In this document: positions 19,672-32,161 of the stretch, in pieces
Position numbering within the stretch: position 1 is the first letter of the stretch
Layout: every line of letters begins with the position of its first letter
IMG/VR virus record: IMGVR_UViG_3300028591_000124
Span: 48,403 to 112,402 of that record
Origin: a virus
Taxonomy: Duplodnaviria; Caudoviricetes
Length of the DNA stretch: 64,000 nucleotides
Strand: one strand, 5' to 3'
Translations under genes and position numbers: made by a program
The notes under the pieces: model-generated
Told to the model about the DNA's origin: nothing
Seen by the model: the letters and a program-made list of their open reading frames with translations, nothing else
Database searches by the model: none

Positions 19672-20571
19672 TTATTCAGGTTTTGTTATGTAACCACGCT
19701 CAATGAACATCTGTTCGAGTTGGACTGCCAGGAACTGAGCGTCTGGGTGTGGTTTACCGGTAGTTCCTCGGCTACGCAAATCGAAGAAATGATCCCAATC
19801 AGAAACAAATGCTGTGTGTACAAGAGTTGTGTTGGTATCCAGAGGGAGAATTGTTCGCGCTTGCTGTGCTGGCCATCCAAGCTTTGTCAATTCCAGATAC
19901 GCTTTCTCACAGAATACATTGGCCATAAGCCACCAATCAAGAGCACCCCATTCTTTGTGATGATCACCAAATTCAATCCCTCTCACAAGATCCTCAAATG
20001 TTGGCAATTCATTTGGGGTGTCAATCCATGTCGGAACATTGATGGCAATCTCGTTACCATACTTTTCCTTAGAGTAGTTACAGTAGCGAGTTGATTCTTC
20101 AGCAATTGAGTTGACACGATGGCGATTGAACTCACGGGTGATGGCAATCTGGGTGGTGAATCTTGCCGTAACACGTTTCTCGTGGTCCTCCGTCGGTTCA
20201 CACAGATATTTCAGGTCATCCAACCATCCATGCTCAATCAGCACCCTGTAATTGGTGGTGATGCAATAGTCGTTGTTCTTGTTGAGCCGAAGTATGCTAT
20301 ACGGATTCTCACCATAGTTGCTGATGACCCAATTCCCCATGATCAGATTCTCAGAATCCAGCCTGGGAATGAGCAAATAAACGGTGCCATGTTCCAGCAT
20401 CGCATAATGTTTTGATTCAATCATGCGGTCCACAAATGGCTTTGCAGTACCCTCACCAATGAGGTGTGAACTCTGGTAGCAGTTACGGCCTGCTGCCTCA
20501 ATAGCCTTGTACATTCCTTCGAGACCTGGGCCTTGCTCCAGAATCTCAACTTTTGGTTCGATAAATTTCAT
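19672..20571 (-). CDS. thyX: flavin-dependent thymidylate synthase
   Basis: HYAMLEH, REFNRHR-x7-STRY and ARTILP ThyX motifs. Confidence 0.95.
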   Translation of the reverse strand: MKFIEPKVEILEQGPGLEGMYKAIEAAGRNCYQSSHLIGEGTAKPFVDRMIESKHYAMLEHGTVYLLIPRLDSENLIMGNWVISNYGENPYSILRLNKNNDYCITTNYRVLIEHGWLDDLKYLCEPTEDHEKRVTARFTTQIAITREFNRHRVNSIAEESTRYCNYSKEKYGNEIAINVPTWIDTPNELPTFEDLVRGIEFGDHHKEWGALDWWLMANVFCEKAYLELTKLGWPAQQARTILPLDTNTTLVHTAFVSDWDHFFDLRSRGTTGKPHPDAQFLAVQLEQMFIERGYITKPE

Positions 20572-20838
20572 GTTTTAATTCTTTAATAGTTTAAAATATA
20601 TCTACTGATACACAATTCATAGTTACACGCAGTTCGATGGGTCTGTTCTCAGAATACACATGGTATTCAGTCTGCTCATAATCATACGTCGGCGCATTGA
20701 AATTACGTTCTTCTGCTTCAGAACGAATCTGCATCACTATGTCATTAAAACGCTTGCGGGCACCATCTTCTGTTGTGAAAAGATCAGCGTCCGAATATAA
20801 CTCATCTTCATAAGAAGAATAATTCACAACCCAGATAT

Positions 20839-21417
20839 TCATTTTTTCTCCCTTTCTGTTAAATAATCGAATGTTTCCATACACTCATGGATTATCCCCA
20901 ACTGAAGTCTGGCACGTTCCTCATATAATTCACACAGAGTCCAGTTTCCATTACCATATTCTTCAGCCGCGCAACTGTCTTCATCAGCTTCTCCGTCAAG
21001 AATTTTGTCGATGTCATCAACATACGATAACTCATCACTGGGAAGAGACACAAGCTGATGCTCTTCCATGAATATCGGATATAGAGTATCAAACACCTTG
21101 GCAATAAGGCTTTGTCGCTCATTCATCTTGATTCCAAGATGTTCTTTCAATATACTGGCCACATTGACCAGCCATTCATCAGGAAGCGATGCAACGCGAA
21201 TATCACCTTCCATATTTCCATCGGCACCATGAAATAACCACTCCTTGCAATCCTGAGAATTGTTTCCAAGAAATGCCGACTCAACCTCAAATCCATTTGG
21301 CAATGTTAATTTAATGTCGGCTGCAAAGAAATTGCGCTCTTCCAGTAATTCAAGAAGTGCAACCACGATGTCTTCAGAGCTGTCATTCCAATGAACTTTT
21401 ATATCTTTTCTTTCCAT
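20839..21417 (-). CDS. hypothetical acidic protein
   Basis: 192-aa ORF in (-) run. Confidence 0.7.
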   Translation of the reverse strand: MERKDIKVHWNDSSEDIVVALLELLEERNFFAADIKLTLPNGFEVESAFLGNNSQDCKEWLFHGADGNMEGDIRVASLPDEWLVNVASILKEHLGIKMNERQSLIAKVFDTLYPIFMEEHQLVSLPSDELSYVDDIDKILDGEADEDSCAAEEYGNGNWTLCELYEERARLQLGIIHECMETFDYLTEREKK

Positions 21418-21974
21418 AATTGTGTGATTTTTGATTGTTATAGAGATTTAAAATCCAACCGATAATCGTTACAAAACCGCTTCCATGAACGAATGCTCAT
21501 TTCATAAGAATCATACTCTTCGTCAAAGATAGCCTTGATTCTGGGATGGTCCTCCAGAAAGCACTTCAAGAACTGCCTGAAGAGACCACCATGAAATTCC
21601 ATATATACAACTTTACTCTTCATCTTCCGAATCCTCTTCTTCGTCTTCATTGATGTAATGCTTCCAGATTTCTGGATACTCATAGATATAAGATGCAGCA
21701 TCGTCGATTTCTTCAAGTGCTTCGCGCTCAGAAAGAGATTTGAGATTGCCATATCCATTATAGCGGATATATCCATCTTCCCAATCAACGTCGCCAAAAC
21801 AAATATGGCGAACAAGAGTCATTTTGTCTGAACCTGAGTAATTGTCCTCAAAGAACTGTTCGTCGAATGTTGAAATCATTTCATCAGGATTGTGCTCTAT
21901 GCAATACTCCTGATGACACTGAAGTTTCTGCTGGAACGTCAATTCGTCCCACAACTCCATAAATCTTTCTTCTG

Positions 21975-22553
21975 TCATGATGCTTTCTTTTTAGGTTTGA
22001 ACTCAACCTCATACTGGTCAAATGCATCGTCCCAGGCAACTTTCTTCATGGTGCCACCAAAGAACTCAGCAATACGATAGTAGCAATTCTCTCCGACACC
22101 ATAATCAAAGTGTGGGAACCAGCCGTTTAGAGTCATTCCATAAGGAACTTGTTTCTTGGTACGACGCATTCTCCAAGCCATTCCAGACATAAAATCATTG
22201 AAAATCTGGGAAAGCACAGTAGAAGCCTTGTCATAGCCACAACCGCTGCAAGTATAACCATCACGATACTCGCCAGTTCCGTCTTGATATGTGACCCAAA
22301 CGCGCCCATGAGGATTATAACCCCACACAGAAGAACGCTTCCAGCTCAACTTAATAGTCATAGACCGAATATCCTTACGATTGGCTTTCTGCTCATACTG
22401 GGCATTCAGTTTCTTAAGATGGTTCATGAAACCGCGCTCTGTCTTGTATTCACTCTGTTTCTTTTCAAAAGCAATTTTCTCTTTATGGAGATACGGAAAT
22501 TGCTTACACATTTCTCTTATAGTCATAGCTTTATTATTAACAGTTATTCCCAT
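21975..22553 (-). CDS. conserved phage hypothetical protein
   Basis: GCGYDKAS motif. Confidence 0.7.
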   Translation of the reverse strand: MGITVNNKAMTIREMCKQFPYLHKEKIAFEKKQSEYKTERGFMNHLKKLNAQYEQKANRKDIRSMTIKLSWKRSSVWGYNPHGRVWVTYQDGTGEYRDGYTCSGCGYDKASTVLSQIFNDFMSGMAWRMRRTKKQVPYGMTLNGWFPHFDYGVGENCYYRIAEFFGGTMKKVAWDDAFDQYEVEFKPKKKAS

Positions 22554-22956
22554 TCAGTCCAATAAAAATCAGTTCTGTTCATAGCAGTATCCAAATACTC
22601 GCTACGTTCATCATCAGTCAGTTCTTCATACTTTTTCTGGCAGTTATCCCATTCCATAGCCTGCTTGATAAAATTCTCATCACTCATTCTGTAACGAAAA
22701 TCTTCAATAGACTCGTTGAAGAACTTGGCAGCGCATTCATCAGAGCAAACAACAGTGGCATCCAACACCCAACCCTCAACCATGAGCTCACCGCAAATCT
22801 CACAGACGCGGCAGCACTCCAAGTCGTATTCGTCAATTACCTCTTGCTTTTCATCTGCATTACCTGTTAAAAGTTTTACGAATTCTTTATTGGCTTTCGC
22901 TTTGCTGCCAACTGCTTCAAGAATGCACTCATAGATATGATTATAATTCTTAGTCT

Positions 22957-23562
22957 TCATAATCCGCCATTATATACTGGAACATCGATTTCCTCCAAAT
23001 CAAATGCATCCACACTACCAAGATATGTGTAGAGCTCATCAGAACAACTGTTCTCAGAAGATGCGATACGGCCAACCAGTTTCACATTGCCGTTATCGTC
23101 CATACTGATTCTGTGAACATAGAAATAATGCACGTCGGTATCGGTGATATGAACTTCATCAACCTTACACTTAATGCATGGGCAGTTCTGGAATTCATCT
23201 TCGTCATTCTCGTCATTTACCATATCAGATGGCAAGAACTCCCAAGTCTTATCTTCCCAAGTGGCCAGACAATCCGAAATACGTCTTGTCTCTCGGTCAC
23301 GAATGATCCTCTCCAGATTGCGGGCTGGGAGCTTCTTGAATATCTCAAATGTAGCTGCCAACCCCTCAATATCCATCTGAGCCTCTTCCTCGGTCAAGTC
23401 ATTGGAAAACAACTCATCATTTACCAATGTCCGATAACGCTCATTCGGCCATTCAAAATCAGGATCAACCTCTATCCGAAGTCTTATGCCGTAGATACCA
23501 AGTTTTTCCTTGTATGGCTTGGCGAACTGCTCCAGACTCTTTAATATTTCACTTTTATCCAT
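22957..23562 (-). CDS. hypothetical protein
   Basis: 201-aa ORF in (-) run. Confidence 0.7.
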   Translation of the reverse strand: MDKSEILKSLEQFAKPYKEKLGIYGIRLRIEVDPDFEWPNERYRTLVNDELFSNDLTEEEAQMDIEGLAATFEIFKKLPARNLERIIRDRETRRISDCLATWEDKTWEFLPSDMVNDENDEDEFQNCPCIKCKVDEVHITDTDVHYFYVHRISMDDNGNVKLVGRIASSENSCSDELYTYLGSVDAFDLEEIDVPVYNGGL

Positions 23563-23739
23563 TTTACTTTGAAAAATAATGCTTACACTTTTCTTTACCG
23601 AAATATATTTTCTCAGGAATAACCGGATAACACTCTGGGCACCCAGTCAAAATACACTCGTCACGGGTAGGAGCGTAACAAATACATGTGGGACACTGAT
23701 ACGCAATATTAATCTGAATTAAGTTCCATTATAGTCTCG

Positions 23740-23890
23740 TCACGTTACTTTATTTGTTAGATTCAATCCTGATTATGAAGGATGCTGACCGGCGTTTACA
23801 GCCTACGTTGGAGGGTTTCAACGCCGGTCAGCATCGTATTAAGAATCAGGATGCATGAACCATGACTATCTCAAAGAACATTGGCCGTGA
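23740..23890. ncRNA. solitary eighth unit of the RT-associated hairpin array
   Basis: CTTTA-TTTGT-TAGAT (to 23762), hairpin 23766-23852 including a 16-bp perfect stem GATGCTGACCGGCGTT/AACGCCGGTCAGCATC, TGAAC 23856-60, arms TCACG/CGTGA. Confidence 0.75.
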
Positions 23891-23908
23891 TACCATTTCC
23901 GTCATGAT

Positions 23909-24988
23909 TTATGCAAGACCCATACGTTTCATACGTTTGGCCTCAGACCACTCGGCACGTTTCTTTTGGATGTTGATACCGTTGTCTGTGATAAGCTTCT
24001 TCATGAGTCCGAAGAGTCTCCAGCCCTCACCAGCATACTCTGTTGCCTTGGTCATGAGCAACTGGAGAGAAGCGTCCTTTGAGAGCATACGGCCACGCTT
24101 ATCCCTCATGACGCAGCGATGGAACAAGATCATGTTCTTCATCGTATAGAACGCACCAGCACCCTTGTATGCGTCAATCCAGCGGGCACTGCAAGGAGTC
24201 TGCCAATCCAGTCCGATTCTCTTTGTGTTGAACAGACGGAAAGCATGATACAACTTATCAGGGTCATTGTGAATCATCGAAATCTTGCAGCGGACAGACT
24301 TCAACGGATTGAGAACCTTGGCATCGATGTCAGATACGAAGACGTTCTTACCGCCAATGCAGATATACGGAACGCCCTTACACTTGTGGAGGTGTTTGCG
24401 CTGCTTCTCGTTGATGACTTTCTGGAGTTTCTTCAGATAATCATCGATCATGGCCAGCACAACCTCGCCATTAAACCAACGATTACGCTCACGGAAGTTC
24501 TCCATATCTTTCTTCCAGAGCTTAGCCTGAACACGCAACTCTTCTTCAGTCATCTGCCATGTGTACTTGAATCCCTTGGAGTGAACCCACGCAACGAATC
24601 CCTTACCATAGTATCCGTCATAAACGATTCCCTGGAATACCTGAGCCATCACCCAGCGACGAAAAAGGTCTCTGTTTGGAACTGTACCGGCATCGAAGAT
24701 AGCTCTCAGTACAGGGTCATCAGCAGTCACAGGAACTGGAGTATCGCCTTCCCACTTCATCATCTTCTCCTCACCACTTGGAGTCTTCATGGAGAAATAC
24801 TTGGTGATGTCGATACCAGCGGTCTTCAGCTGTTCCTGACGATCCTTCAGTTTCATGTAGATGGTTCCAAGACCAGAGTCAGCACCAATTACCGTCGCAT
24901 TCTTTACCTGGCACTCATGCTCATTGATTTCGAACTCTGCACCGCAATTGGGGCATACCAACTTTGTTTCGTTTTTCTTTGTTCCCAT
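23909..24988 (-). CDS. hypothetical protein, candidate RT-system partner (N-terminal CxxC)
   Basis: 359 aa, basic, CPNC, LFRRWVMAQ and WIDAYKGAGAFYT segments; lies between the array and the solitary unit. Confidence 0.85.
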   Translation of the reverse strand: MGTKKNETKLVCPNCGAEFEINEHECQVKNATVIGADSGLGTIYMKLKDRQEQLKTAGIDITKYFSMKTPSGEEKMMKWEGDTPVPVTADDPVLRAIFDAGTVPNRDLFRRWVMAQVFQGIVYDGYYGKGFVAWVHSKGFKYTWQMTEEELRVQAKLWKKDMENFRERNRWFNGEVVLAMIDDYLKKLQKVINEKQRKHLHKCKGVPYICIGGKNVFVSDIDAKVLNPLKSVRCKISMIHNDPDKLYHAFRLFNTKRIGLDWQTPCSARWIDAYKGAGAFYTMKNMILFHRCVMRDKRGRMLSKDASLQLLMTKATEYAGEGWRLFGLMKKLITDNGINIQKKRAEWSEAKRMKRMGLA

Positions 24989-25023
24989 AATTGTAACTTT
25001 TTAAATGTTAATGATGTTAATTG

Positions 25024-25476
25024 TTATTTTTTACCGTCAATCCACTCTCGCAGAATAACTAAATCTTTGTCGTTTTGTGATTGCCAGAACCACTTTCCCA
25101 TGTTGTCCTCGTCCCATACGAATAAACCAGACAGGACCCAACACAACAGATATGACTCCAGCCTAAATTGAGCAACTTCCCTGTCAATTCCGTACAACAT
25201 ATCGTCATCGCTCAATTCATTGATTTTGAGTGCTTTGAAATATCGCCTCTGTTTGTTGTCATTTCGTTCAGACGGTCTGGAATGTTTGTACTCTTGATAG
25301 AGATCTTCCAGAACCGATATACTGAAGCAATTCGTATCAGTCAATTGGCCGTCATACTCGCCATTCTTGACCAGATACTTCTTATCAATGCTCAGGTTTC
25401 TCTCTGTGAGATTGACCTTGAACTTCGCACCAGCTTCTATAGCCTCCAGTGCTTGTTGGATAATTGTTTGTTTCAT
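25024..25476 (-). CDS. hypothetical protein, candidate RT-system partner
   Basis: ~150 aa from ATG 25476 (ORF track gives 25506); YKHSRPSER and KWFWQS..DLVILREW segments. Confidence 0.8.
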   Translation of the reverse strand: MKQTIIQQALEAIEAGAKFKVNLTERNLSIDKKYLVKNGEYDGQLTDTNCFSISVLEDLYQEYKHSRPSERNDNKQRRYFKALKINELSDDDMLYGIDREVAQFRLESYLLCWVLSGLFVWDEDNMGKWFWQSQNDKDLVILREWIDGKK

Positions 25477-25489
25477 CTTTGTCTTGTTT

Positions 25490-26716
25490 TTAAAAGATAC
25501 ATTCAAGTCCTTGGCGTGTTACTGTATTTTTCAGATTGATTCCGGTGGGTACATCCGAACGGACCATCTCGGATTCTGAGATCGGTCCTCGGATGTGTCT
25601 AAACCGGATGAATGAAACAGTCGGACTGCTCATGTATCTACGTTCACGCTCCGCATCTGGATTCCTGTGATATGGTACATTATCTGTAAATTTCAGATCA
25701 GTACAGTTGTTAAGCTCATAAGATGACAGCCGGAGATCAAAGTGTTGATCGCCTGCTGTCATAAGATGAGCTATAGCAAACTGTAATATGAATTTGTCAC
25801 CCTTATCCAGATCCCATGTACTTGGTATGTTTTGCCAACAACCCAAATGGCTTGTCACATTTCTATATTCTTCAGATAACTCCAGCGTAAGAAGCACTTC
25901 TGAGGGTGACATAAGCTTTATGTAATGAAGCATGTCCTCCTCGTGAAGGGCTATTCTACGCTGGGATTTGAATTTGCCATCCCCTGTTGTAGGCTTCTGT
26001 GACAGATTATTTTTGCGATTCCTCAAATGCTCATGACACATTGCTGTATTTTTCAGATGTTGCGAGCCAGCGTCAACTGTCTTCTGGAAGCGGGTACGAC
26101 GGGATTGGTGTTTCCCGTCGCACCAGCTGTAAGAAGATGTGTAGACGCTGAACCTGAAAAAGAATCCTTGGAATCGCCCTCTGTGCTGAGAATATGTGGC
26201 ATCATGCAGACCCGCATCTTTCTTTATGTTACAGATACTTAGATGGCAGAGCCATTTGGAAAGATCGCGGCGGCTGTTGGATATAACAGTGCCGCGATCA
26301 TTCCGATACATTTGCCATCTCAGTTGAATCATCGTCTGCCAAATACCACCGTAGTTTATGCTAACGACTGAGAAGGACATCATGCAGACTGCACTTTTCT
26401 TTAGTCTCCAGATATTTAACCAGGACGAACTGGGAGGAATCCTGGAGTCATGCGGGTCATAGACCGGCCAATGACCCTGGATACCTCCCAGTATCCAATC
26501 CTGGTGCTTTGAATAAACTGCCATTTGTCCTATGCATTGTGCTATGCTGGAACACTCACCATCGTGGCGCATACCTTTACGATTCAGATTGAACTCTGTG
26601 GAACTGAAGGCTGAGATGCACGACTCACACACAGGATATTGTCCTGTCTGAGAGTCGAAATCTCGCCTTCTTGTCCCCAGAGGAATGAATGTGTGATGTC
26701 TTGTGTTCCGTTCCAT
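25490..26716 (-). CDS. 408-codon ORF running through the hairpin array (protein function doubtful, frame apparently selected)
   Basis: Uninterrupted frame; atypical S/R/H/C/W-rich composition; stop-avoiding substitutions in array motifs. Confidence 0.45.
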   Translation of the reverse strand: MERNTRHHTFIPLGTRRRDFDSQTGQYPVCESCISAFSSTEFNLNRKGMRHDGECSSIAQCIGQMAVYSKHQDWILGGIQGHWPVYDPHDSRIPPSSSWLNIWRLKKSAVCMMSFSVVSINYGGIWQTMIQLRWQMYRNDRGTVISNSRRDLSKWLCHLSICNIKKDAGLHDATYSQHRGRFQGFFFRFSVYTSSYSWCDGKHQSRRTRFQKTVDAGSQHLKNTAMCHEHLRNRKNNLSQKPTTGDGKFKSQRRIALHEEDMLHYIKLMSPSEVLLTLELSEEYRNVTSHLGCWQNIPSTWDLDKGDKFILQFAIAHLMTAGDQHFDLRLSSYELNNCTDLKFTDNVPYHRNPDAERERRYMSSPTVSFIRFRHIRGPISESEMVRSDVPTGINLKNTVTRQGLECIF

Positions 26717-26722
26717 GCGCTA
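25513..26722. repeat. array of seven structurally conserved, sequence-divergent hairpin units (putative ncRNA/cDNA templates)
   Basis: CAGAT at 25532, 25694, 25873, 26054, 26232, 26409 and 26585, each preceded by CTNTA-N5 and followed by a 68-89 nt hairpin and TGAAT/TGAAA. Confidence 0.9.
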
Positions 26723-26734
26723 TCTCTTCACAAA

Positions 26735-28009
26735 TTACAACTGAGCAACTAATGTGTTGTAGACTCCACGACGAGTCTTGATAGCGTTAGCCATACAAGA
26801 GATAGTCATGTATCCATCCAGTTTGTCACCAGTCTTAGTTCTGTTTGCCTTGACATTTCTACCGATACCGCGAGACACACAGCCGTCCTTGCCGTCACGA
26901 ATAAATCCAAGACCGCCAATTTTTGTCTTCCCAGTCTTGACAGCCCTGAGAGCATCCATCACGAACTTGTTCAATTCATCCAGGTCTTTCTTGACGTTGA
27001 CAATCGGAAGAACTTGTGTGGCCCACGAAAACTCGCCATTGCCTTTGTAGAGATACCGATTAACGGCATTCAAAGCTCTGGTGAATGTGGTGCCATGCTT
27101 TTTTATTGTCCTGTCCTCAATTTCTTTCTGGAATGATTTGATACGTGACTTGGCCAGTGTTATGTTGTCTTTGTTTCGGCTAAGATTCAACGCAAATCCC
27201 AGGAACTTGAACCACTTGCCACGCTCCAGATATTCAACCTTTTTGGGATTCAGCTTCATATCCATCTTATCAAGCTCCTGTGTCAATGCAGCCATAGAAC
27301 TGAGGTATTTATCACCAATGAACAGCATATCATCTGAATATCTCACATAATAGCCAAGTTCACTCAGTTTCTTGTCCGTCTCGTACAGGATCACATCTGC
27401 CAGCCAACTCGCTACCGAACATCCTTGTTTCAAAGACTGGTATGCAGACTGAAGCTTACCGTCCGTATCAAAGTAGAAATCCGAATGGTAATACTTTCTC
27501 AGGACATCGATTACAGCACTCTTTCCGTGTTTATCCTCAACCATATTAAAAGCTGCATCGATACACCAAATAGGCACAGAATCAAAATACTTGCTAAGGT
27601 CCGATTTCCATCCCAGCATATCGCCACTGACCTTGTGCGAGTGCTCAGCAATCTGTTGTACTACCATGCCACAGCCAATGCCCTTACGATAAGCCTTACA
27701 GCTATCATGGATACGCTCAGGAGTAAGTTCAAACAAAAGGTCGTTTGCAATACTCAGAATGATACGGTCAATCGGCTCATTTACATATACAGTCCGGAAC
27801 TCGCCAGGAGTATCTTTTGGTATCTGTGCTGTATGAGGAGGTGCAATCTCATACTTACCAGCTTTCATCAACTGGTATATCTGAGCTCTTGTCTCTTCTT
27901 TCGTCAATTGGTAAAGATACGCCCTATTGATGTCCTTACCGACACCCTTTTCAATTGCATACTCCCAACGCTGAGGTTCGAAGAACATTTCTAAAATCTT
28001 GTCATTCAT
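26735..28009 (-). CDS. reverse transcriptase (stand-alone, unclassified)
   Basis: IPK..GEFR..DRI, KSDLSKYFDSV (motif A), LKQGCSVAS (B), YVRYSDD (C), LNPKK, FKFLGF. Confidence 0.95.
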   Translation of the reverse strand: MNDKILEMFFEPQRWEYAIEKGVGKDINRAYLYQLTKEETRAQIYQLMKAGKYEIAPPHTAQIPKDTPGEFRTVYVNEPIDRIILSIANDLLFELTPERIHDSCKAYRKGIGCGMVVQQIAEHSHKVSGDMLGWKSDLSKYFDSVPIWCIDAAFNMVEDKHGKSAVIDVLRKYYHSDFYFDTDGKLQSAYQSLKQGCSVASWLADVILYETDKKLSELGYYVRYSDDMLFIGDKYLSSMAALTQELDKMDMKLNPKKVEYLERGKWFKFLGFALNLSRNKDNITLAKSRIKSFQKEIEDRTIKKHGTTFTRALNAVNRYLYKGNGEFSWATQVLPIVNVKKDLDELNKFVMDALRAVKTGKTKIGGLGFIRDGKDGCVSRGIGRNVKANRTKTGDKLDGYMTISCMANAIKTRRGVYNTLVAQL

Positions 28010-28395
28010 AACTGATAGAATTGGTCTTGTTGTACCAACCAGTTTCTGTTGTCCTTAAACAACTGGTCGATGATTGCTTTGTAAACAGCTATCTCAGTAA
28101 ACCCATAAACTTCGTCGAGATTTATCCAGCAGTCAAATTCAAGACCGCTGTCATCATCACTCTCCAGAAAGATTTCGATTTTGTCGCCATTTGACCCAAG
28201 ATTTACGGATGAGCACTGGACCTTATAATATCGCCTTGTGCTAACTGGGTCTTGAACAAAAACGAATGGCGCAATCTTCTCAGAGAAATCAAACAGATAC
28301 CCAGATCCGTTTTCACCAAACTTTTTATAATATGCCCTGAGAATGGAGAGAACCGATTTACGAATCTCTCCACTCATTTTCTTAATGTCTATCAT
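28006..28395 (-). CDS. hypothetical protein, stop overlaps the RT start
   Basis: 129 aa with ATGA overlaps at both ends. Confidence 0.7.
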   Translation of the reverse strand: MIDIKKMSGEIRKSVLSILRAYYKKFGENGSGYLFDFSEKIAPFVFVQDPVSTRRYYKVQCSSVNLGSNGDKIEIFLESDDDSGLEFDCWINLDEVYGFTEIAVYKAIIDQLFKDNRNWLVQQDQFYQL

Positions 28396-29408
28396 ACTGT
28401 TGGTGCCATTACGTACTGGTCGATGAAGCTTACCATAGCCTCATTCTGAGGAAACAGCTGGGTAGTATCCATGAGCTGAGGCTTGTACATGTCATTTGCG
28501 ATAGAGTAGAAGTCCCATGCCGTCACTTGCTGATTGTGAGCGTTACGAAGTAGCAGCTGCTCAGTCATAGAGTGAATCTGCCAGTCATTCAGTGGATACG
28601 TACCATTGAGCTTGATTTCCTTGTACTTTGTATCACAGGCAACACGGGTAGCATCCAGCATACCGATCAGCATGAAGATCTTGGCAGGAGGAATCACGGT
28701 TGCTTTCATGCGGGCAATCTTCTGGTCATCCTGGAATGTGATATTGTGAATGTTCTGCATCCACTCAACAACCTTATTGAGAACGTCCGTGTATGTAACT
28801 CTCTCCTTAACACGGCCCTGGCCTCTTGTATATGTCCTGATGATGCGGTCAGCACCAAGAATTGTCTGGTTGTGACAGATACGGACATTTCTACCGATTG
28901 CAACTTCCAGACCCTGCTGATTATAGCCGATTGCAAGAGACTGGTCGCTCTCGCCATCGTCAAAGCCATTGATATGGATAGTAGAATAGATACGGCGAAC
29001 CGTATATGCTGCAACATTCAGCTCAGCCTGCGGGTCGAATGTCAATGTCTTGGAAATATCCTTGTTGAGGGACACACCGGGATACTGTGAACCTCCAGCC
29101 TTTGCAGCGAACATGTCAAATACCTCAGGCTCCAAACCGGCATCCTTGACAATATCCATTACACGCTCAATCAACTCGAAGTGGTGAATACCGTGCATCG
29201 GTTGGCCACCATTCAACTCACGATTGGTCTTCTTGAGCTGTTCGAGAGTGATGTCCTGTGTCTTGAATTCTTCCCAGTTCTTGAAGTGGTCTGGGTCATA
29301 CACTGTAACAGCTGTCTCCTGAGCTGCCTCTGCCATAGATTCCTGTGCTACTGTTGGCATTTCAATGCCTTGATTGAAGTCAATACCTCCAAAAATTCCG
29401 TTGTTCAT
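28392..29408 (-). CDS. DUF932-like protein
   Basis: HFELI, RRIYSTIHI, GRNVRICHNQ and TAWDFY segments. Confidence 0.65.
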   Translation of the reverse strand: MNNGIFGGIDFNQGIEMPTVAQESMAEAAQETAVTVYDPDHFKNWEEFKTQDITLEQLKKTNRELNGGQPMHGIHHFELIERVMDIVKDAGLEPEVFDMFAAKAGGSQYPGVSLNKDISKTLTFDPQAELNVAAYTVRRIYSTIHINGFDDGESDQSLAIGYNQQGLEVAIGRNVRICHNQTILGADRIIRTYTRGQGRVKERVTYTDVLNKVVEWMQNIHNITFQDDQKIARMKATVIPPAKIFMLIGMLDATRVACDTKYKEIKLNGTYPLNDWQIHSMTEQLLLRNAHNQQVTAWDFYSIANDMYKPQLMDTTQLFPQNEAMVSFIDQYVMAPTV

Positions 29409-29446
29409 AATCGTAACTGTTTAATTGTGATTGTTGTTAATATTAT

Positions 29447-29935
29447 TTAGAAGTGGAACGACACAACTCCACCGATATAGAGTTTGTCACCAGGTTTTAA
29501 ATTCTTAAAGAGAGTCAACACAAAGTCACCAAGAGGATCTGGGCCATTGTCGCTCGGATAACCGCAAGTCCAGTTCGTCCATACATACCGGTCCCAATTC
29601 CTACAATGAGACTGCTGACAGATTTTCTGCAAATCCCAGAACGACAATGATTCAGATGGATTCAATTTTGCAGCTGCATCCTGAGCGGCTTTTATCCATT
29701 CATTGATGAAATCATTGCATCCTTTGAACGTGAGCTCACGGCCATTCCTTTCGAAGAAGAGTTCAAAAATCGGGTCGTTTGCTTCAATTTCTCGGATTTG
29801 CTCTTCTGGAGTCAGTTCATCGTCCATGTAGTCGCGCCAATCATTGTAGCACTCTTCTTCATAGTCAGAAGGGTGTATGTAGTCCTCTTCTGAGATTGGC
29901 TGAGTTGAAATCTGAAAAATCTTGTAGTATGACAT
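29447..29935 (-). CDS. hypothetical acidic protein
   Basis: IFQISTQPI...YIGGVVSFHF. Confidence 0.75.
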   Translation of the reverse strand: MSYYKIFQISTQPISEEDYIHPSDYEEECYNDWRDYMDDELTPEEQIREIEANDPIFELFFERNGRELTFKGCNDFINEWIKAAQDAAAKLNPSESLSFWDLQKICQQSHCRNWDRYVWTNWTCGYPSDNGPDPLGDFVLTLFKNLKPGDKLYIGGVVSFHF

Positions 29936-29939
29936 AGTT

Positions 29940-30752
29940 TTACCCTATTACTTTTACCATATTTTCCAATACGTACTCTGGAAGGGCTGCGAGATTAATT
30001 TCTTTGTAGAAGTCATCACGAACCCTGCCCTTGTTAGTAGTTGCCATTTCAATCATTGGCATTCCAAAGAGAGGTGTGGTGCCAACTCTGTATGTGTCAT
30101 TGCCATCCACAAATGTATTTCCAACCAAAATCAAGATATTTGCCTTGACCTTGGCAATTCGCTCTTCATGAAGTTTCTCAGCCTTTTCAATAAGGTTATC
30201 TGCAATACCCTTGGCTTCTTCGATAACCTCTTTCACGTACTCACTACCGAAATAACCCCAGCATGAATCAACTACATCGCCATCAGGGTCTTCCAGCTGG
30301 AATCCATAAACGTCTCCAGTGTAGTACATATCTAAGGTTTTAACCTCACCGCGAAGACAATTGAGAGCTTTTTCACGAACTTCCTTAGTACAGATTTTCT
30401 TGCCGTACTCCTTGATTGCGTCTGCTTTTGAGACCGCAATAATTCCAAAGAGTCCGCTGTCCCAAGGGTCGTTATATGGATAGCCGCCATCACAGCTAAT
30501 AGTCAGGCCACTGTGCTCATAACCACGAATCTTCAACCAAATATAATTCTTCTTGAATTCATCACTGAGACCAGTTCCTTCGTCATTCAGGATTTCATCA
30601 ATACTGTGTTTATCTGGGTCATAACTACGACTGTTTGAATAAATCGTACCCAAATTATCCCATTCTCGCGGAGACTGAGGATCTGTATCGTAGTACACAT
30701 TAATGGTGTAACCACGATATTCTTCCGTTTTGTAAAGATAATCGCTTAACAT
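29940..30752 (-). CDS. conserved mobile-element/phage hypothetical protein
   Basis: SPREWDNLG, YEHSG, WDSG and DSCWGYFG motifs. Confidence 0.75.
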   Translation of the reverse strand: MLSDYLYKTEEYRGYTINVYYDTDPQSPREWDNLGTIYSNSRSYDPDKHSIDEILNDEGTGLSDEFKKNYIWLKIRGYEHSGLTISCDGGYPYNDPWDSGLFGIIAVSKADAIKEYGKKICTKEVREKALNCLRGEVKTLDMYYTGDVYGFQLEDPDGDVVDSCWGYFGSEYVKEVIEEAKGIADNLIEKAEKLHEERIAKVKANILILVGNTFVDGNDTYRVGTTPLFGMPMIEMATTNKGRVRDDFYKEINLAALPEYVLENMVKVIG

Positions 30753-31454
30753 AATTGTGTGATTGTTGATTGTTGTTGTTTAATCCACCTCAAAGTTTCG
30801 ATGGTCGAATTCTTTTCCGTCAAAAATACAAGAAAACATTTCAGAAGAGTTTGCTGTGCAATAGTAATCCAAGTCTTCATTACTCAGACCATTGTCACGC
30901 TTCAATCTTGTAAGACCTCTATCAATCTGGTCAATTTGTTCTGGAGTGTAAAGGTCTTCCAAGTCAATAATCAAATTGTTTCTTACATCTGCTATTGTCA
31001 TGTCATTTTTCAAGTTTGAATCTATAACACCTACTTTCATCCATGTGCTTATGGCACCATTCCAGTTGTTTTGAATTCATTCCAAAACGATGCTCACAAC
31101 GCTTACATTTTTCTAAGTCCATGAGAGATTTTCGAGGCTTTTGTATTGGCATCCCATAATTAATAATTGGAAGCTCAATATCTGGCACTCTTATGTCGAT
31201 TGGTTCCGCATTCATTTTCATGCGCTCCAGTTCTTCTGCATCAATAGGCACAATCTGAACACCGGACTCCAATTCTTTTGTTTTAATAAATTCTTCATCA
31301 AGCTTATCAAATTGCTCTCGAAGAATAAATACTTTTGGAACTTCCTTTTTAGGTACATTTACAAGTTCATGTGATAATTCTTCCATTTCCTTATTATTAA
31401 ACCTGAAAGGCACTCCTATAAGGGGTAAATGTGGCATAATGAATTTTGTTTTAT

Positions 31455-31493
31455 TCTCTGTGCCTGCGCTCCAAGAGAGCCAGGCACAAGAGA
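31455..31493 (-). promoter_or_regulatory. GC-rich hairpin downstream of the putative DGR variable region
   Basis: TGTGCCTG/CAGGCACA stem ~25 nt past the stop codon. Confidence 0.6.
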
Positions 31494-31516
31494 TAATGGA
31501 CTAAAGAGATAAAGAG

Positions 31517-32161
31517 TTAAAATGCGGAGACAGGGCGAACCCTGCCCTCGGACGTCTTGCCGTTGGTGGTCAGATAGCCATTGAGGAAGTACACGTCCCA
31601 AGCGAGCGTGGCACTGCGAACTGTGCAAGACCAATACCATTCATCCGCAAATGGTTCCTGACCGATATATGTAAGGGCAGCGTCCAATTTTCGTCTCAGT
31701 AGATACATGAGGTAAAGCTCACCGGCAGTCGGGATCCAATAGTTTTCTTCGAGCTCAATCTGGAGTCCCAGCTCAATCAGTCGCTCAGTTGTCTCACGTC
31801 CCTTGAAATCCTCAACAGCCTTGTCATACCAATCAAAATACAGAGACGAATCCTCTTCGTTAGTTTCCATCGAGACATCCGTTATGTCGGACGAAGCCAG
31901 CCTTACATTGAGGTCACCGTACTTTGCGCCAACAGCTATGGCACCGTCCTTGCTATTCTCGCCGGTAAACAACTCATGATGTCCGTCCTTATAAATGAGG
32001 AATACACCACACTCGCCAATTGGACCGACCTTGGTTTCGACTATTGGCTTAGATTCACTACCAATAATAAAATCAAATGCTTTCTTTGCATTTTCCACAT
32101 TGTTACCAAACCCTTTAATAAGGTCGTAACGCAACTGCTGTAAATAATTCAATTGTTCCAT
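31517..32161 (-). CDS. DUF1566/C-type-lectin-fold protein with a DGR-type variable region
   Basis: WIPTAGEL and the C-terminus WYWSCT..SAT.AW.V.F.NG.....K....RVRPVSAF; variable positions use NNC/NNT codons. Confidence 0.85.
   Translation of the reverse strand: MEQLNYLQQLRYDLIKGFGNNVENAKKAFDFIIGSESKPIVETKVGPIGECGVFLIYKDGHHELFTGENSKDGAIAVGAKYGDLNVRLASSDITDVSMETNEEDSSLYFDWYDKAVEDFKGRETTERLIELGLQIELEENYWIPTAGELYLMYLLRRKLDAALTYIGQEPFADEWYWSCTVRSATLAWDVYFLNGYLTTNGKTSEGRVRPVSAF

What the first reader, a model, noticed from the sequence alone, without database searches (positions are those of the whole stretch)
25490..26716. The hairpin array is kept as a 408-codon open frame, with motif changes exactly where stops would arise
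Seen: the whole array is one ORF on the RT strand; (61/64)^408 is about 3e-9 under uniform composition. Unit spacings are not all multiples of 3, so the motif is read in all three frames and is not a protein repeat. The minus-strand consensus is ATCTGA in units 1-4 and 7. Only units 5 and 6, where the frame would read ATC-TGA, carry ATC-TGT and ATC-TGG instead. Likewise TAAAG occurs in units 5-7, where TAA is out of frame, while unit 3, where it would be in frame, has TAT. The ORF stops 13 nt before the next ATG. Inference: ribosome passage through the array is selected (protection from Rho or decay, coupling to partner genes, or unfolding templates) rather than the peptide itself.
Basis: partly seen in the sequence, partly recalled or inferred. 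Interest (0 to 1): 0.85.

Follow-up and report, generated by a model that had tools for sequence, protein, structure and literature searches.

The report
Phage RT template array kept translatable
In one lineage of large gut or rumen phages, the array of folded RNA templates that a known reverse-transcriptase system (UG27) copies into DNA is also kept as a single 408-codon reading frame, and selection appears to protect the open frame rather than the protein it would encode.

Summary
Window 25490-26716 (-) is a 408-codon frame with no stop. The other five frames carry 14-26 stops (P about 3e-9).

The region is the ncRNA array of a UG27 reverse-transcriptase system (RT, seven template units, two accessory genes). 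That system is already published: Mestre 2022, and the Minerva preprint 2026, which showed short cDNA hairpins.

What I did not find in that literature is the frame laid over the array. In five-plus close relatives (83% nt identity) the frame stays open:
- There are no fixed stops.
- The only indels are two compensating +1/-1 pairs, one at the extreme 3' end, and one in-frame 42-nt deletion.
- Other UG27 arrays at similar divergence carry 7-23 indels and are mostly out of register.

The peptide itself shows no constraint:
- Substitutions are spread evenly over codon positions.
- There is no codon-usage signal.
- Replacements are as radical as in the off-frames.
- AlphaFold pLDDT is 25, and there are no homologues outside the clade.

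About 100 other UG27 arrays lack such a frame, so it is lineage-specific. A second, unrelated clade has an independent 328-codon array frame.

The purpose remains inferred. Other notes of this scan flagged the same stretch.

The parts
26735..28009 (-). UG27-class reverse transcriptase, 424 aa, YSDD active site
   Evidence: PADLOC RT_UG27 E 6.8e-206 over the full length. Pfam RVT_1 5.4e-16. Y224-S225-D226-D227 are invariant in alignment A3.
26717..26734 (-). 18-nt spacer between the RT stop (TAA) and the ATG of the array frame. It is in frame with the RT. It holds a second in-frame TAG in the window's subclade only.
25490..26716 (-). 408-codon open frame that covers the whole seven-unit ncRNA array (97.5% of the RT-to-sORF gap)
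   Evidence: Retained in L026, L027, L028, L036, L083, L087 and L091.
26575..26689 (-). template unit 1 core: TTCA, central hairpin, ATCTGAATCGTAAAG
   Evidence: Motif and TTCA distance. Consensus hairpin of 32 pairs.
26399..26513 (-). template unit 2 core. The motif is ATCTGGAGACTAAAG and ATC is in frame, hence TGG rather than TGA.
26222..26328 (-). template unit 3 core. The motif is ATCTGTAACATAAAG and ATC is in frame. It reads TGT here and TGC in subclade B.
26044..26158 (-). template unit 4 core (ATCTGAAAAATACAG)
25863..25972 (-). template unit 5 core. The motif is ATCTGAAGAATATAG. TAT is in frame at the place where TAA would be a stop.
25684..25792 (-). template unit 6 core (ATCTGAAATTTACAG)
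25522..25616 (-). template unit 7 core (ATCTGAAAAATACAG)
25477..25489 (-). 13-nt A-rich spacer between the stop of the array frame and the sORF ATG
25024..25476 (-). small accessory protein (sORF, PADLOC RTas346), 150 aa counted from the ATG
   Evidence: PADLOC E 2e-56. Omega is 0.05 against L028.
23909..24988 (-). large accessory protein (bORF, PADLOC RTas337), 359 aa
   Evidence: PADLOC E 5e-117
23748..23859 (-). solitary eighth template unit after bORF (TTCA, hairpin, ATCTAACAAATAAAG). It lies outside any long frame and carries TAA directly after ATC.
   Evidence: Equivalent motif hits lie after bORF in L027, L028 and L036.

Best explanation
The stretch is the multi-template ncRNA array of a phage UG27 reverse-transcriptase system. 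It holds seven units, each TTCA, a hairpin, then ATC-N7-TANAG, and each is copied into a short cDNA hairpin in the published systems.

In this phage lineage the same RNA is also kept as one translatable frame that fills the RT-to-sORF gap. It starts at the first ATG, 18 nt after the RT stop. It ends 13 nt before the sORF ATG (26 nt in the sister subclade).

**Shown**
- The frame is far beyond chance.
- It is preserved against stops and frameshifts.
- The nucleotides are constrained as RNA hairpins.
- The encoded amino-acid sequence carries no detectable constraint.

**Inferred**
- Ribosomes that finish the RT re-initiate and travel through the array.
- Selection acts on that passage, not on the peptide. 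Passage would keep a 1.2-kb structured spacer from causing polarity or decay, deliver ribosomes to the two accessory genes, and/or set when the template hairpins can fold.
- The peptide is a by-product.
- This is an optional, lineage-specific add-on to UG27, not part of its core mechanism.
For: **1. Identity of the system**
- RT_UG27, RTas346 and RTas337 all match.
- The published motifs AUC-N7-UANAG and UUYA are present in all seven units on the RT strand.

**2. The frame is not chance**
- It has 0 stops against 14-26 in the other five frames, P 2.6e-9.

**3. Retention**
- Subclades A and B have 87% identical RTs. They differ in the array by 132 fixed and 109 segregating sites, with no fixed stop.
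- Placing the 201 observed substitutions at random keeps the frame open in only 2e-4 of trials.
- The control frames show 4 and 11 fixed stop/non-stop differences. Frame 0 shows none, while nonsense variants occur only as polymorphisms.

**4. Indels**
- A versus B has five 1-nt indels. Four form two compensating pairs 27-30 nt apart, and one sits 3 codons before the stop.
- L091 has a 42-nt in-frame deletion.
- Thirteen control pairs of other UG27 arrays at 76-92% identity have 7-23 indels, and 26-80% of their columns are out of register.

**5. No peptide constraint**
- Codon-position differences are 68/61/72, against 47/32/185 for the RT.
- Omega is 0.54, against 0.72 and 0.98 in the off-frames and 0.06 and 0.05 for the RT and sORF.
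- Mean BLOSUM62 score of replacements is -0.54, against -0.47 and -0.64 in the off-frames.
- Codon-usage log-likelihood ratio (LLR) is 0.005, against 0.12-0.40 for real genes.
- AlphaFold pLDDT is 25.
- There are no Pfam, PHROG or PADLOC hits.
- Only clade members appear among 1.8 billion representatives.

**6. RNA-level constraint**
- The array's pseudo-dS is 0.25, against 1.55 for the RT.
- Variable columns make up 7.6% of paired positions and 29% of unpaired ones.
- 14 of 21 variable pairs keep pairing.

**7. Recurrence**
- An unrelated 328-codon array frame starts 6 nt after the RT stop in a separate clade (L167, L175, L176).
- Its product has no similarity to this one.
- The sister lineage L093 reads homologous units in the same frame.
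Against: - No direct evidence of translation could be obtained.
- About 100 other distinct UG27 arrays have no long frame. By the preprint's account, the five systems shown to make cDNA needed only the three proteins, so passage is not needed for the core reaction.
- Natural nonsense variants circulate. They sit at codon 15 (7 contigs), codon 26 and codon 332. Their polymorphic-versus-fixed contrast is only suggestive (about p 0.09 by my hand calculation; p 0.01-0.03 from the control frames).
- The second clade's frame ends about 370 nt before its sORF and is often broken near codon 90-100. This weakens the coupling version.
- Omega of 0.54 is slightly lower than in the off-frames, so a weak peptide constraint is not excluded.
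Confidence: 0.55

Rival explanations
1. A young overprinted (de novo) gene. The 408-aa basic, probably disordered protein is itself functional, for example as a fourth lineage-specific component that binds the RNA or cDNA. RNA-level constraint on the same nucleotides would mask the usual coding signatures.
For: - The frame is under selection.
- Omega in frame 0 (0.54) is somewhat below the off-frames (0.72, 0.98), with 30 synonymous codon changes against 24 and 17.
- The predicted pI is 9.3.
- Dual constraint can flatten codon-position patterns.
Against: - Two compensated frameshifts rewrite 9-10 residues each, and a 14-residue deletion is tolerated.
- Replacements are as radical as in the off-frames.
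- There is no codon adaptation and the amino-acid composition looks random.
- AlphaFold pLDDT is 25 with pTM 0.18.
- The second clade's array frame encodes an unrelated sequence.
- There are no homologues outside the clade.
Confidence: 0.2
2. A relic. The frame was selected or assembled in an ancestor but is now neutral. It persists only because the nucleotides evolve slowly under RNA constraint, and it is beginning to decay.
For: - Nonsense variants at codons 15, 26 and 332 and a 3' frameshift exist in several samples.
- The sister lineage L093 has only 234 codons, then 73 more after one stop.
- The second clade is often broken.
- The retention statistic from the control frames is moderate, p about 0.01-0.03.
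Against: - It still needs past selection to explain an origin with P about 3e-9.
- Frame-compensating indel pairs and the shortage of indels relative to 13 control pairs point to continuing selection.
- No stop is fixed in either subclade, despite 132 fixed differences.
Confidence: 0.17
3. Chance or compositional artefact. A stop-poor sequence happens to be open in one frame.
For: Many arrays were scanned, so some long frames are expected. Frames of 150-190 codons do occur on both strands of other arrays.
Against: - The other five frames of the same DNA carry 14-26 stops.
- The shuffle maximum is 241 codons in 5000 trials and P is 2.6e-9.
- Even 14,000 known loci would give an expectation of about 1e-4.
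- The frame is reproduced in independent assemblies from several samples.
Confidence: 0.01

Closest known systems
UG27 reverse-transcriptase systems with variable ncRNA arrays (Mestre et al. 2022, bioRxiv 10.1101/2021.12.02.470933 / PMC9226505; Minerva preprint, bioRxiv 10.64898/2026.09.22.753630)
   Same: - RT, sORF and bORF are all present.
- The context is a phage.
- The array consists of sequence-diverse units of about 150-180 nt.
- Each unit has a central hairpin bracketed by UUYA and AUC-N7-UANAG.
- An extra solitary unit lies in a neighbouring gap.

The window is a member of this family.
   Different: The papers treat the array as intergenic and non-coding. The only mention of coding is that one annotated CDS overlapping three units was removed. 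An array-spanning frame under frame-only selection is not described in the text I could search.
DRT2 (UG2) ncRNA and the neo gene (as summarised in the Minerva preprint; Tang et al. and Wilkinson et al. 2024, from my own knowledge)
   Same: An RT-associated ncRNA template that carries a hidden stop-free frame.
   Different: In DRT2 the frame exists only on concatemeric cDNA made by rolling-circle copying, and the Neo protein is the effector. Here the frame lies on the genomic sense strand. It runs through non-templated linkers as well as templates and is readable directly from the operon mRNA. Its peptide shows no conservation.
Overprinted or de novo genes in viruses and phages (established knowledge)
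   Same: A taxonomically restricted frame laid over a pre-existing functional sequence, with unusual composition and no homologues.
   Different: Overprinted genes normally overlap another protein frame and show some protein-level constraint. Here the partner constraint is RNA structure, and no protein-level constraint is detectable.
Translation-dependent protection of polycistronic mRNA from Rho polarity, and translational coupling (established knowledge of bacterial operons)
   Same: The gene junctions are tight: 4-nt overlaps upstream of the RT, 18 nt between the RT stop and the array ATG, and 13 nt between the array stop and the sORF ATG. Such junctions would let ribosomes pass along the whole operon.
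   Different: I know of no described case in which a long structured ncRNA array is itself kept open for this purpose. The link to Rho or coupling is inferred, not shown.

Membership tests
UG27 RT system | Reverse transcriptase of the UG27 group with an intact YxDD site | tested here: met
   PADLOC RT_UG27 E 6.8e-206, residues 1-424 against profile 1-420 of 420. YSDD at 224-227 is invariant.
UG27 RT system | Two co-oriented accessory proteins (clusters 346 and 337, i.e. sORF and bORF) | tested here: met
   RTas346 E 2e-56 and RTas337 E 5e-117, directly downstream.
UG27 RT system | Array of units with a central hairpin flanked by UUYA (5') and AUC-N7-UANAG (3') on the RT strand | tested here: met
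   Seven motif hits in the array plus one after bORF. Only one other hit lies on that strand in the 64 kb. TTCA sits 76-100 nt upstream of every ATC. Consensus hairpins have 21-36 pairs. The published covariance model itself was not available to run.
UG27 RT system | Phage or prophage context | tested here: met
   The window lies in a 112,402-bp IMG/VR virus record rated complete. Relatives sit on viral contigs of 100-170 kb.
UG27 RT system | Short RT-dependent cDNA hairpins made from each unit | not testable with these tools
   Shown for five other systems in the preprint, not for this phage.
Conventional protein-coding gene | Excess of third-position and synonymous change between relatives | tested here: not met
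   Codon-position differences are 68/61/72, against 47/32/185 for the RT. Omega is 0.54, against 0.06.
Conventional protein-coding gene | Codon usage and positional composition like the genome's genes | tested here: not met
   LLR is 0.005 in frame 0, against 0.12-0.40 for ten other genes. Base composition is flat across the three codon positions.
Conventional protein-coding gene | Family membership or a predicted fold | tested here: not met
   No Pfam, PHROG or PADLOC hit. pLDDT is 25.2 (the alignment is shallow, so this is weak evidence).
DRT2-neo type hidden ORF | The stop-free frame is created only on head-to-tail cDNA concatemers of one template | tested here: not met
   The frame is continuous on genomic DNA across seven different units and their linkers.
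Frame kept open by selection (frame-only constraint) | Stops and net frameshifts are excluded among relatives while amino acids drift | tested here: met
Frame kept open by selection (frame-only constraint) | Actual ribosome occupancy | not testable with these tools
No ribosome profiling data were available to me.

The most novel reading that the evidence does not exclude
Some phage UG27 retroelements have evolved, at least twice, a 'frame-only' ORF over their multi-template RNA array. What is selected is ribosome passage, which couples translation to the availability, stability or folding of reverse-transcription templates. The product is a throw-away peptide. This would be a new way for a retroelement to tie cDNA production to the translational state of the infected cell.
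Probability: 0.4. Interest if true: 0.75.

Novelty: new variant of a known kind. Interest (0 to 1): 0.6.

Why it matters
UG27 is a recently characterised phage retroelement whose biological role is unknown. If some lineages keep the template array translatable without regard to the peptide, that points to an interplay between ribosomes and the template RNA on a single transcript. The interplay could involve polarity, coupling to the accessory genes, or timing of hairpin folding.

The data also supply ready-made natural experiments. These are the nonsense variants at codons 15, 26 and 332, an in-frame deletion that removes one hairpin arm, and sister lineages with and without the frame.

There is a practical point as well. 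Gene callers annotate this array as a hypothetical protein, which hides the ncRNA. Conversely, ncRNA pipelines that delete such CDS calls would miss the frame.

Tried and rejected
- **Family and homology searches of the 408-aa product.** Pfam, PHROGs and PADLOC gave nothing.
- **Rfam scan of 20000-32000.** Only sub-threshold noise.
- **GenBank phage collection, blastn 'distant'.** No match.
- **Exact-pattern scans for conserved array 23- and 29-mers.** Nothing in viral contigs or genome contigs.
- **Strand assignment by folding energy.** Uninformative: -453 against -472 kcal/mol summed over the seven units. The strand was set by the orientation of the published motifs instead.
- **The 'motif changes where stops would arise' argument.** Rejected as independent evidence, because the N7 part of the motif is variable in the family.
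- **Shorter database proteins taken as broken frames.** P0023, P0031, P0006 and P0017 turned out to be start-site choices by gene callers on fully open frames.
- **Stop-codon readthrough fusing the RT to the array frame.** Considered, because the two are in frame in both clades. The window's subclade has a second in-frame TAG, so I did not pursue it.
- **Leading-open-length statistic from the RT stop.** Too sensitive to that TAG and to redundancy to be useful.
- **L081** (171-aa relative, stop in a replaced third unit). It is a 1.35-kb contig with a non-RT gene upstream, possibly chimeric or rearranged, so it is not used as evidence.

Full report
**What is there.**
Window 25490-26716 on the minus strand is an ATG-to-TAA frame of 408 codons.
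- Directly upstream lies a 424-aa reverse transcriptase (26735-28009, minus). It matches the PADLOC RT_UG27 profile end to end (E 6.8e-206).
- Directly downstream lie a 150-aa and a 359-aa gene. They match the two UG27-associated families RTas346 and RTas337.
- The window is part of a 112,402-bp IMG/VR virus record rated complete.

The frame contains seven copies of ATC-N7-TANAG on the RT strand. Each has TTCA 76-100 nt upstream and a long hairpin in between. An eighth unit lies after the 359-aa gene.

This is the architecture published for UG27.
- Mestre et al. 2022 predicted an ncRNA between the RT and the accessory genes.
- The Minerva preprint (bioRxiv 10.64898/2026.09.22.753630) described arrays of sequence-diverse units.
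- That preprint also showed in five systems that reverse transcription starts at the AUC of AUC-N7-UANAG, ends after UUYA, needs all three proteins, and yields 50-100-nt cDNA hairpins.

So the hairpin array and its RT are a member of a known system. The motif orientation places the ncRNA on the same strand as the RT and the frame.

**The observation.**
- Frame 0 has no stop. The other two minus frames have 22 and 26, and the plus frames have 14, 19 and 19.
- Dinucleotide-preserving shuffles give a stop density of 0.047 per codon, which means 2.6e-9 for 408 open codons. The longest frame in 5000 shuffles averaged 93 codons and never exceeded 241.
- Unit spacings are 176, 177, 178, 181, 179 and 162 nt, so the motif is read in all three phases (offsets 1, 0, 0, 1, 2, 1, 1).
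- The two units whose ATC is in phase read TGG and TGT where the other five read TGA.
- The one unit whose TANAG is in phase reads TAT.
- The frame begins at the first ATG, 18 nt after the RT stop, and ends 13 nt before the next ATG.

One correction is needed. In 135 distinct motif instances from relatives, the three bases after ATC are variable: AAA is the commonest and TGA is found essentially only in this clade. The motif adjustments therefore follow from the frame being open and are not separate evidence.

**Is the frame maintained?**
The protein databases hold this product only in two 90% clusters (25 and 52 distinct sequences, 408 and 404 aa) plus one 171-aa fragment. I fetched DNA for 13 further loci.

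They form two groups whose RTs are 87% identical:
- Subclade A: the window, L027, L087, L088, L089, L090, L091.
- Subclade B: L026, L028, L036, L083, L084-L086, L092.

*Substitutions.*
- The arrays differ at 132 fixed and 109 segregating sites.
- No stop is fixed in either subclade.
- If the 201 substitutions between the window and L026 are placed at random on matching bases, the frame survives in 2e-4 of 20,000 trials.
- A stricter control uses the real substitutions. In the co-linear 334 codons, the two off-frames show 4 and 11 fixed stop/non-stop differences between A and B, and frame 0 shows none.
- Polymorphic stop differences number 4 and 7 in the off-frames and 2 in frame 0, with a third at codon 15 just outside that segment.
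- This contrast points to purifying selection against stops, at roughly p 0.01-0.03.

*Indels.* These give the clearest signal.
- A and B differ by five 1-nt indels.
- Four of them form two +1/-1 pairs 30 and 27 nt apart. Each pair rewrites 9-10 residues and then restores the frame.
- The fifth lies three codons before the stop.
- L091 has a 42-nt in-frame deletion that removes the TTCA and the 5' arm of unit 7.
- In 13 independent pairs of other UG27 arrays at 76-92% identity there are 7-23 indels of mixed length, and 26-80% of the columns are out of register.

**Is the peptide maintained?** No sign of it.
- Differences between the window and L026 fall 68/61/72 on codon positions 1/2/3, against 47/32/185 in the adjacent RT.
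- Nei-Gojobori omega is 0.54 in frame 0. It is 0.72 and 0.98 in the off-frames, 0.06 for the RT and 0.05 for the sORF.
- Replacements have a mean BLOSUM62 score of -0.54, against -0.47 and -0.64 in the off-frames.
- The codon-usage score is 0.005 per codon, against 0.12-0.40 for ten other genes of this phage. Base composition is flat across codon positions, and the amino-acid composition resembles a translated random sequence.
- AlphaFold2 with the 31-sequence alignment gives pLDDT 25 and pTM 0.18. The alignment is shallow, so this is weak evidence.

The nucleotides themselves are strongly constrained.
- The array's pseudo-synonymous distance is 0.25, where the RT's is 1.55.
- Only 7.6% of the paired columns in the seven consensus hairpins vary, against 29% of unpaired ones.
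- 14 of 21 variable pairs keep pairing.

The region therefore evolves as structured RNA on which an open frame is superimposed.

**How general is it?**
I measured the RT-to-sORF gap in about 100 further distinct UG27 loci (RT 47-68% identical).
- The longest RT-strand frames are mostly 26-190 codons, with 3-36 stops in every frame.
- The reverse strand reaches 172 codons.
- The frame is therefore not a property of UG27 arrays.

Two exceptions stand out.
- **L093.** On the RT tree it is the sister of the window's clade (RT 82%). It has 234 open codons followed, after a single stop, by 73 more in the same frame. It reads homologous units in the same frame as the window (32% aa identity over 122 residues, E 2e-12).
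- **A separate clade (L167, L175, L176).**
  - It has a 328-codon frame beginning at an ATG 6 nt after the RT stop, with 7 stops in that frame against 28 and 30 in the others.
  - It covers about 72% of the gap and stops some 370 nt before the sORF.
  - Its relatives L160 and L173 carry a nonsense codon near codon 98 and a -1 frameshift near codon 89. The databases hold 40 full-length and more than 40 shortened variants.
  - Its product has no similarity to the window's product, and the arrays share no detectable nucleotide similarity.

Array-spanning frames have therefore arisen at least twice.

**Interpretation.**
Chance is excluded. A conventional protein gene is contradicted by every coding test I could apply.

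On mechanism, I think the most likely picture is this. Ribosomes terminating at the RT stop re-initiate at the nearby ATG and traverse the array. This keeps the long structured spacer of the RT-array-sORF-bORF operon translated up to the accessory genes. This step is inferred, and several points count against it as a necessity:
- Most UG27 systems do without the frame.
- Nonsense variants at codons 15 (seven contigs), 26 and 332 exist in nature.
- The second clade's frame does not reach its sORF.

A young overprinted gene with a functional disordered peptide remains possible, and so does a formerly selected frame now decaying slowly.

**Novelty.**
The RT, its partners, the array and its cDNA products are already known. 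The only reference to coding sequence over a UG27 array that I could find is a methods note: an annotated CDS overlapping three units was removed. A frame-only ORF laid over the template array is, as far as I could search, undescribed. I class it as a new variant of a known kind. Other notes of this scan flagged the same stretch as a candidate new RT-plus-array system. None had identified it as UG27.

Noticed in passing
L167:1829-2815 (also L175:1837-2823, L176:1832-2818): A second, phylogenetically separate UG27 clade has its own 328-codon frame over the array. It starts at an ATG 6 nt after the RT stop and is in frame with the RT. That frame has 7 stops against 28 and 30 in the others. It ends about 370 nt before the sORF, and its product is unrelated to the window's. 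Relatives L160 (nonsense near codon 98) and L173 (-1 frameshift near codon 89, plus a +3 insertion) are broken.
   Followed up: partly
L093:5382-6308: The sister lineage of the window's clade (RT 82% identical) has an extra unit at the 5' end of the array. Its frame is 234 codons and continues for 73 more after a single stop. It reads units homologous to the window's units 1-2 in the same frame. The last roughly 350 nt of its array has several stops.
   Followed up: partly
L091, alignment columns 1110-1152 of the 14-locus array alignment (corresponds to about window 25585-25626): A 42-nt deletion removes the TTCA and the 5' arm of the unit-7 hairpin. It probably kills that template, yet it is exactly 14 codons long and leaves the frame open.
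   Followed up: partly
L084/L085/L086 (codon 15), L092 (codon 26 plus a 1-nt deletion near codon 388), L089/L090 (codon 332): Natural nonsense and frameshift variants of the array frame, found on contigs from several samples. All lie near the ends of the frame. They are ready-made material for testing whether the frame matters.
   Followed up: partly
L081:1-1352: A short contig carries the last 155 nt of the RT gene and array units 1-2 (89% identical to the window), joined upstream to an unrelated 226-aa gene and downstream to a different third unit (ATCTAAGGTATAAAG). It is either a rearranged locus, an example of unit replacement, or an assembly chimera.
   Followed up: partly
window 26714-26737 and L167:1820-1831: In both clades with array frames, the ATG of the frame lies within 6-18 nt of the RT stop and in the same reading frame as the RT. 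In subclade B only a single TAA separates the two. The window's subclade has an additional in-frame TAG.
   Followed up: no
window 23748-23859 (-): The solitary eighth unit after the large accessory gene reads ATC-TAA, a stop if it were in phase, and lies in a stretch with no long frame. This is consistent with stop avoidance being confined to the main array.
   Followed up: partly
window 26735-29408 (-): The RT start overlaps the upstream 129-aa gene by 4 nt, and that gene overlaps a 338-aa gene by 4 nt. This suggests a tightly coupled operon of at least six cistrons, counting the array frame. The two upstream genes have no family hits.
   Followed up: no
P0006, P0017, P0023, P0031 (database proteins): Gene callers gave several relatives shorter products (283-376 aa) by choosing internal ATG or GTG starts, although the frame is open from the conserved ATG. 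Database lengths understate how often the full frame is intact.
   Followed up: yes
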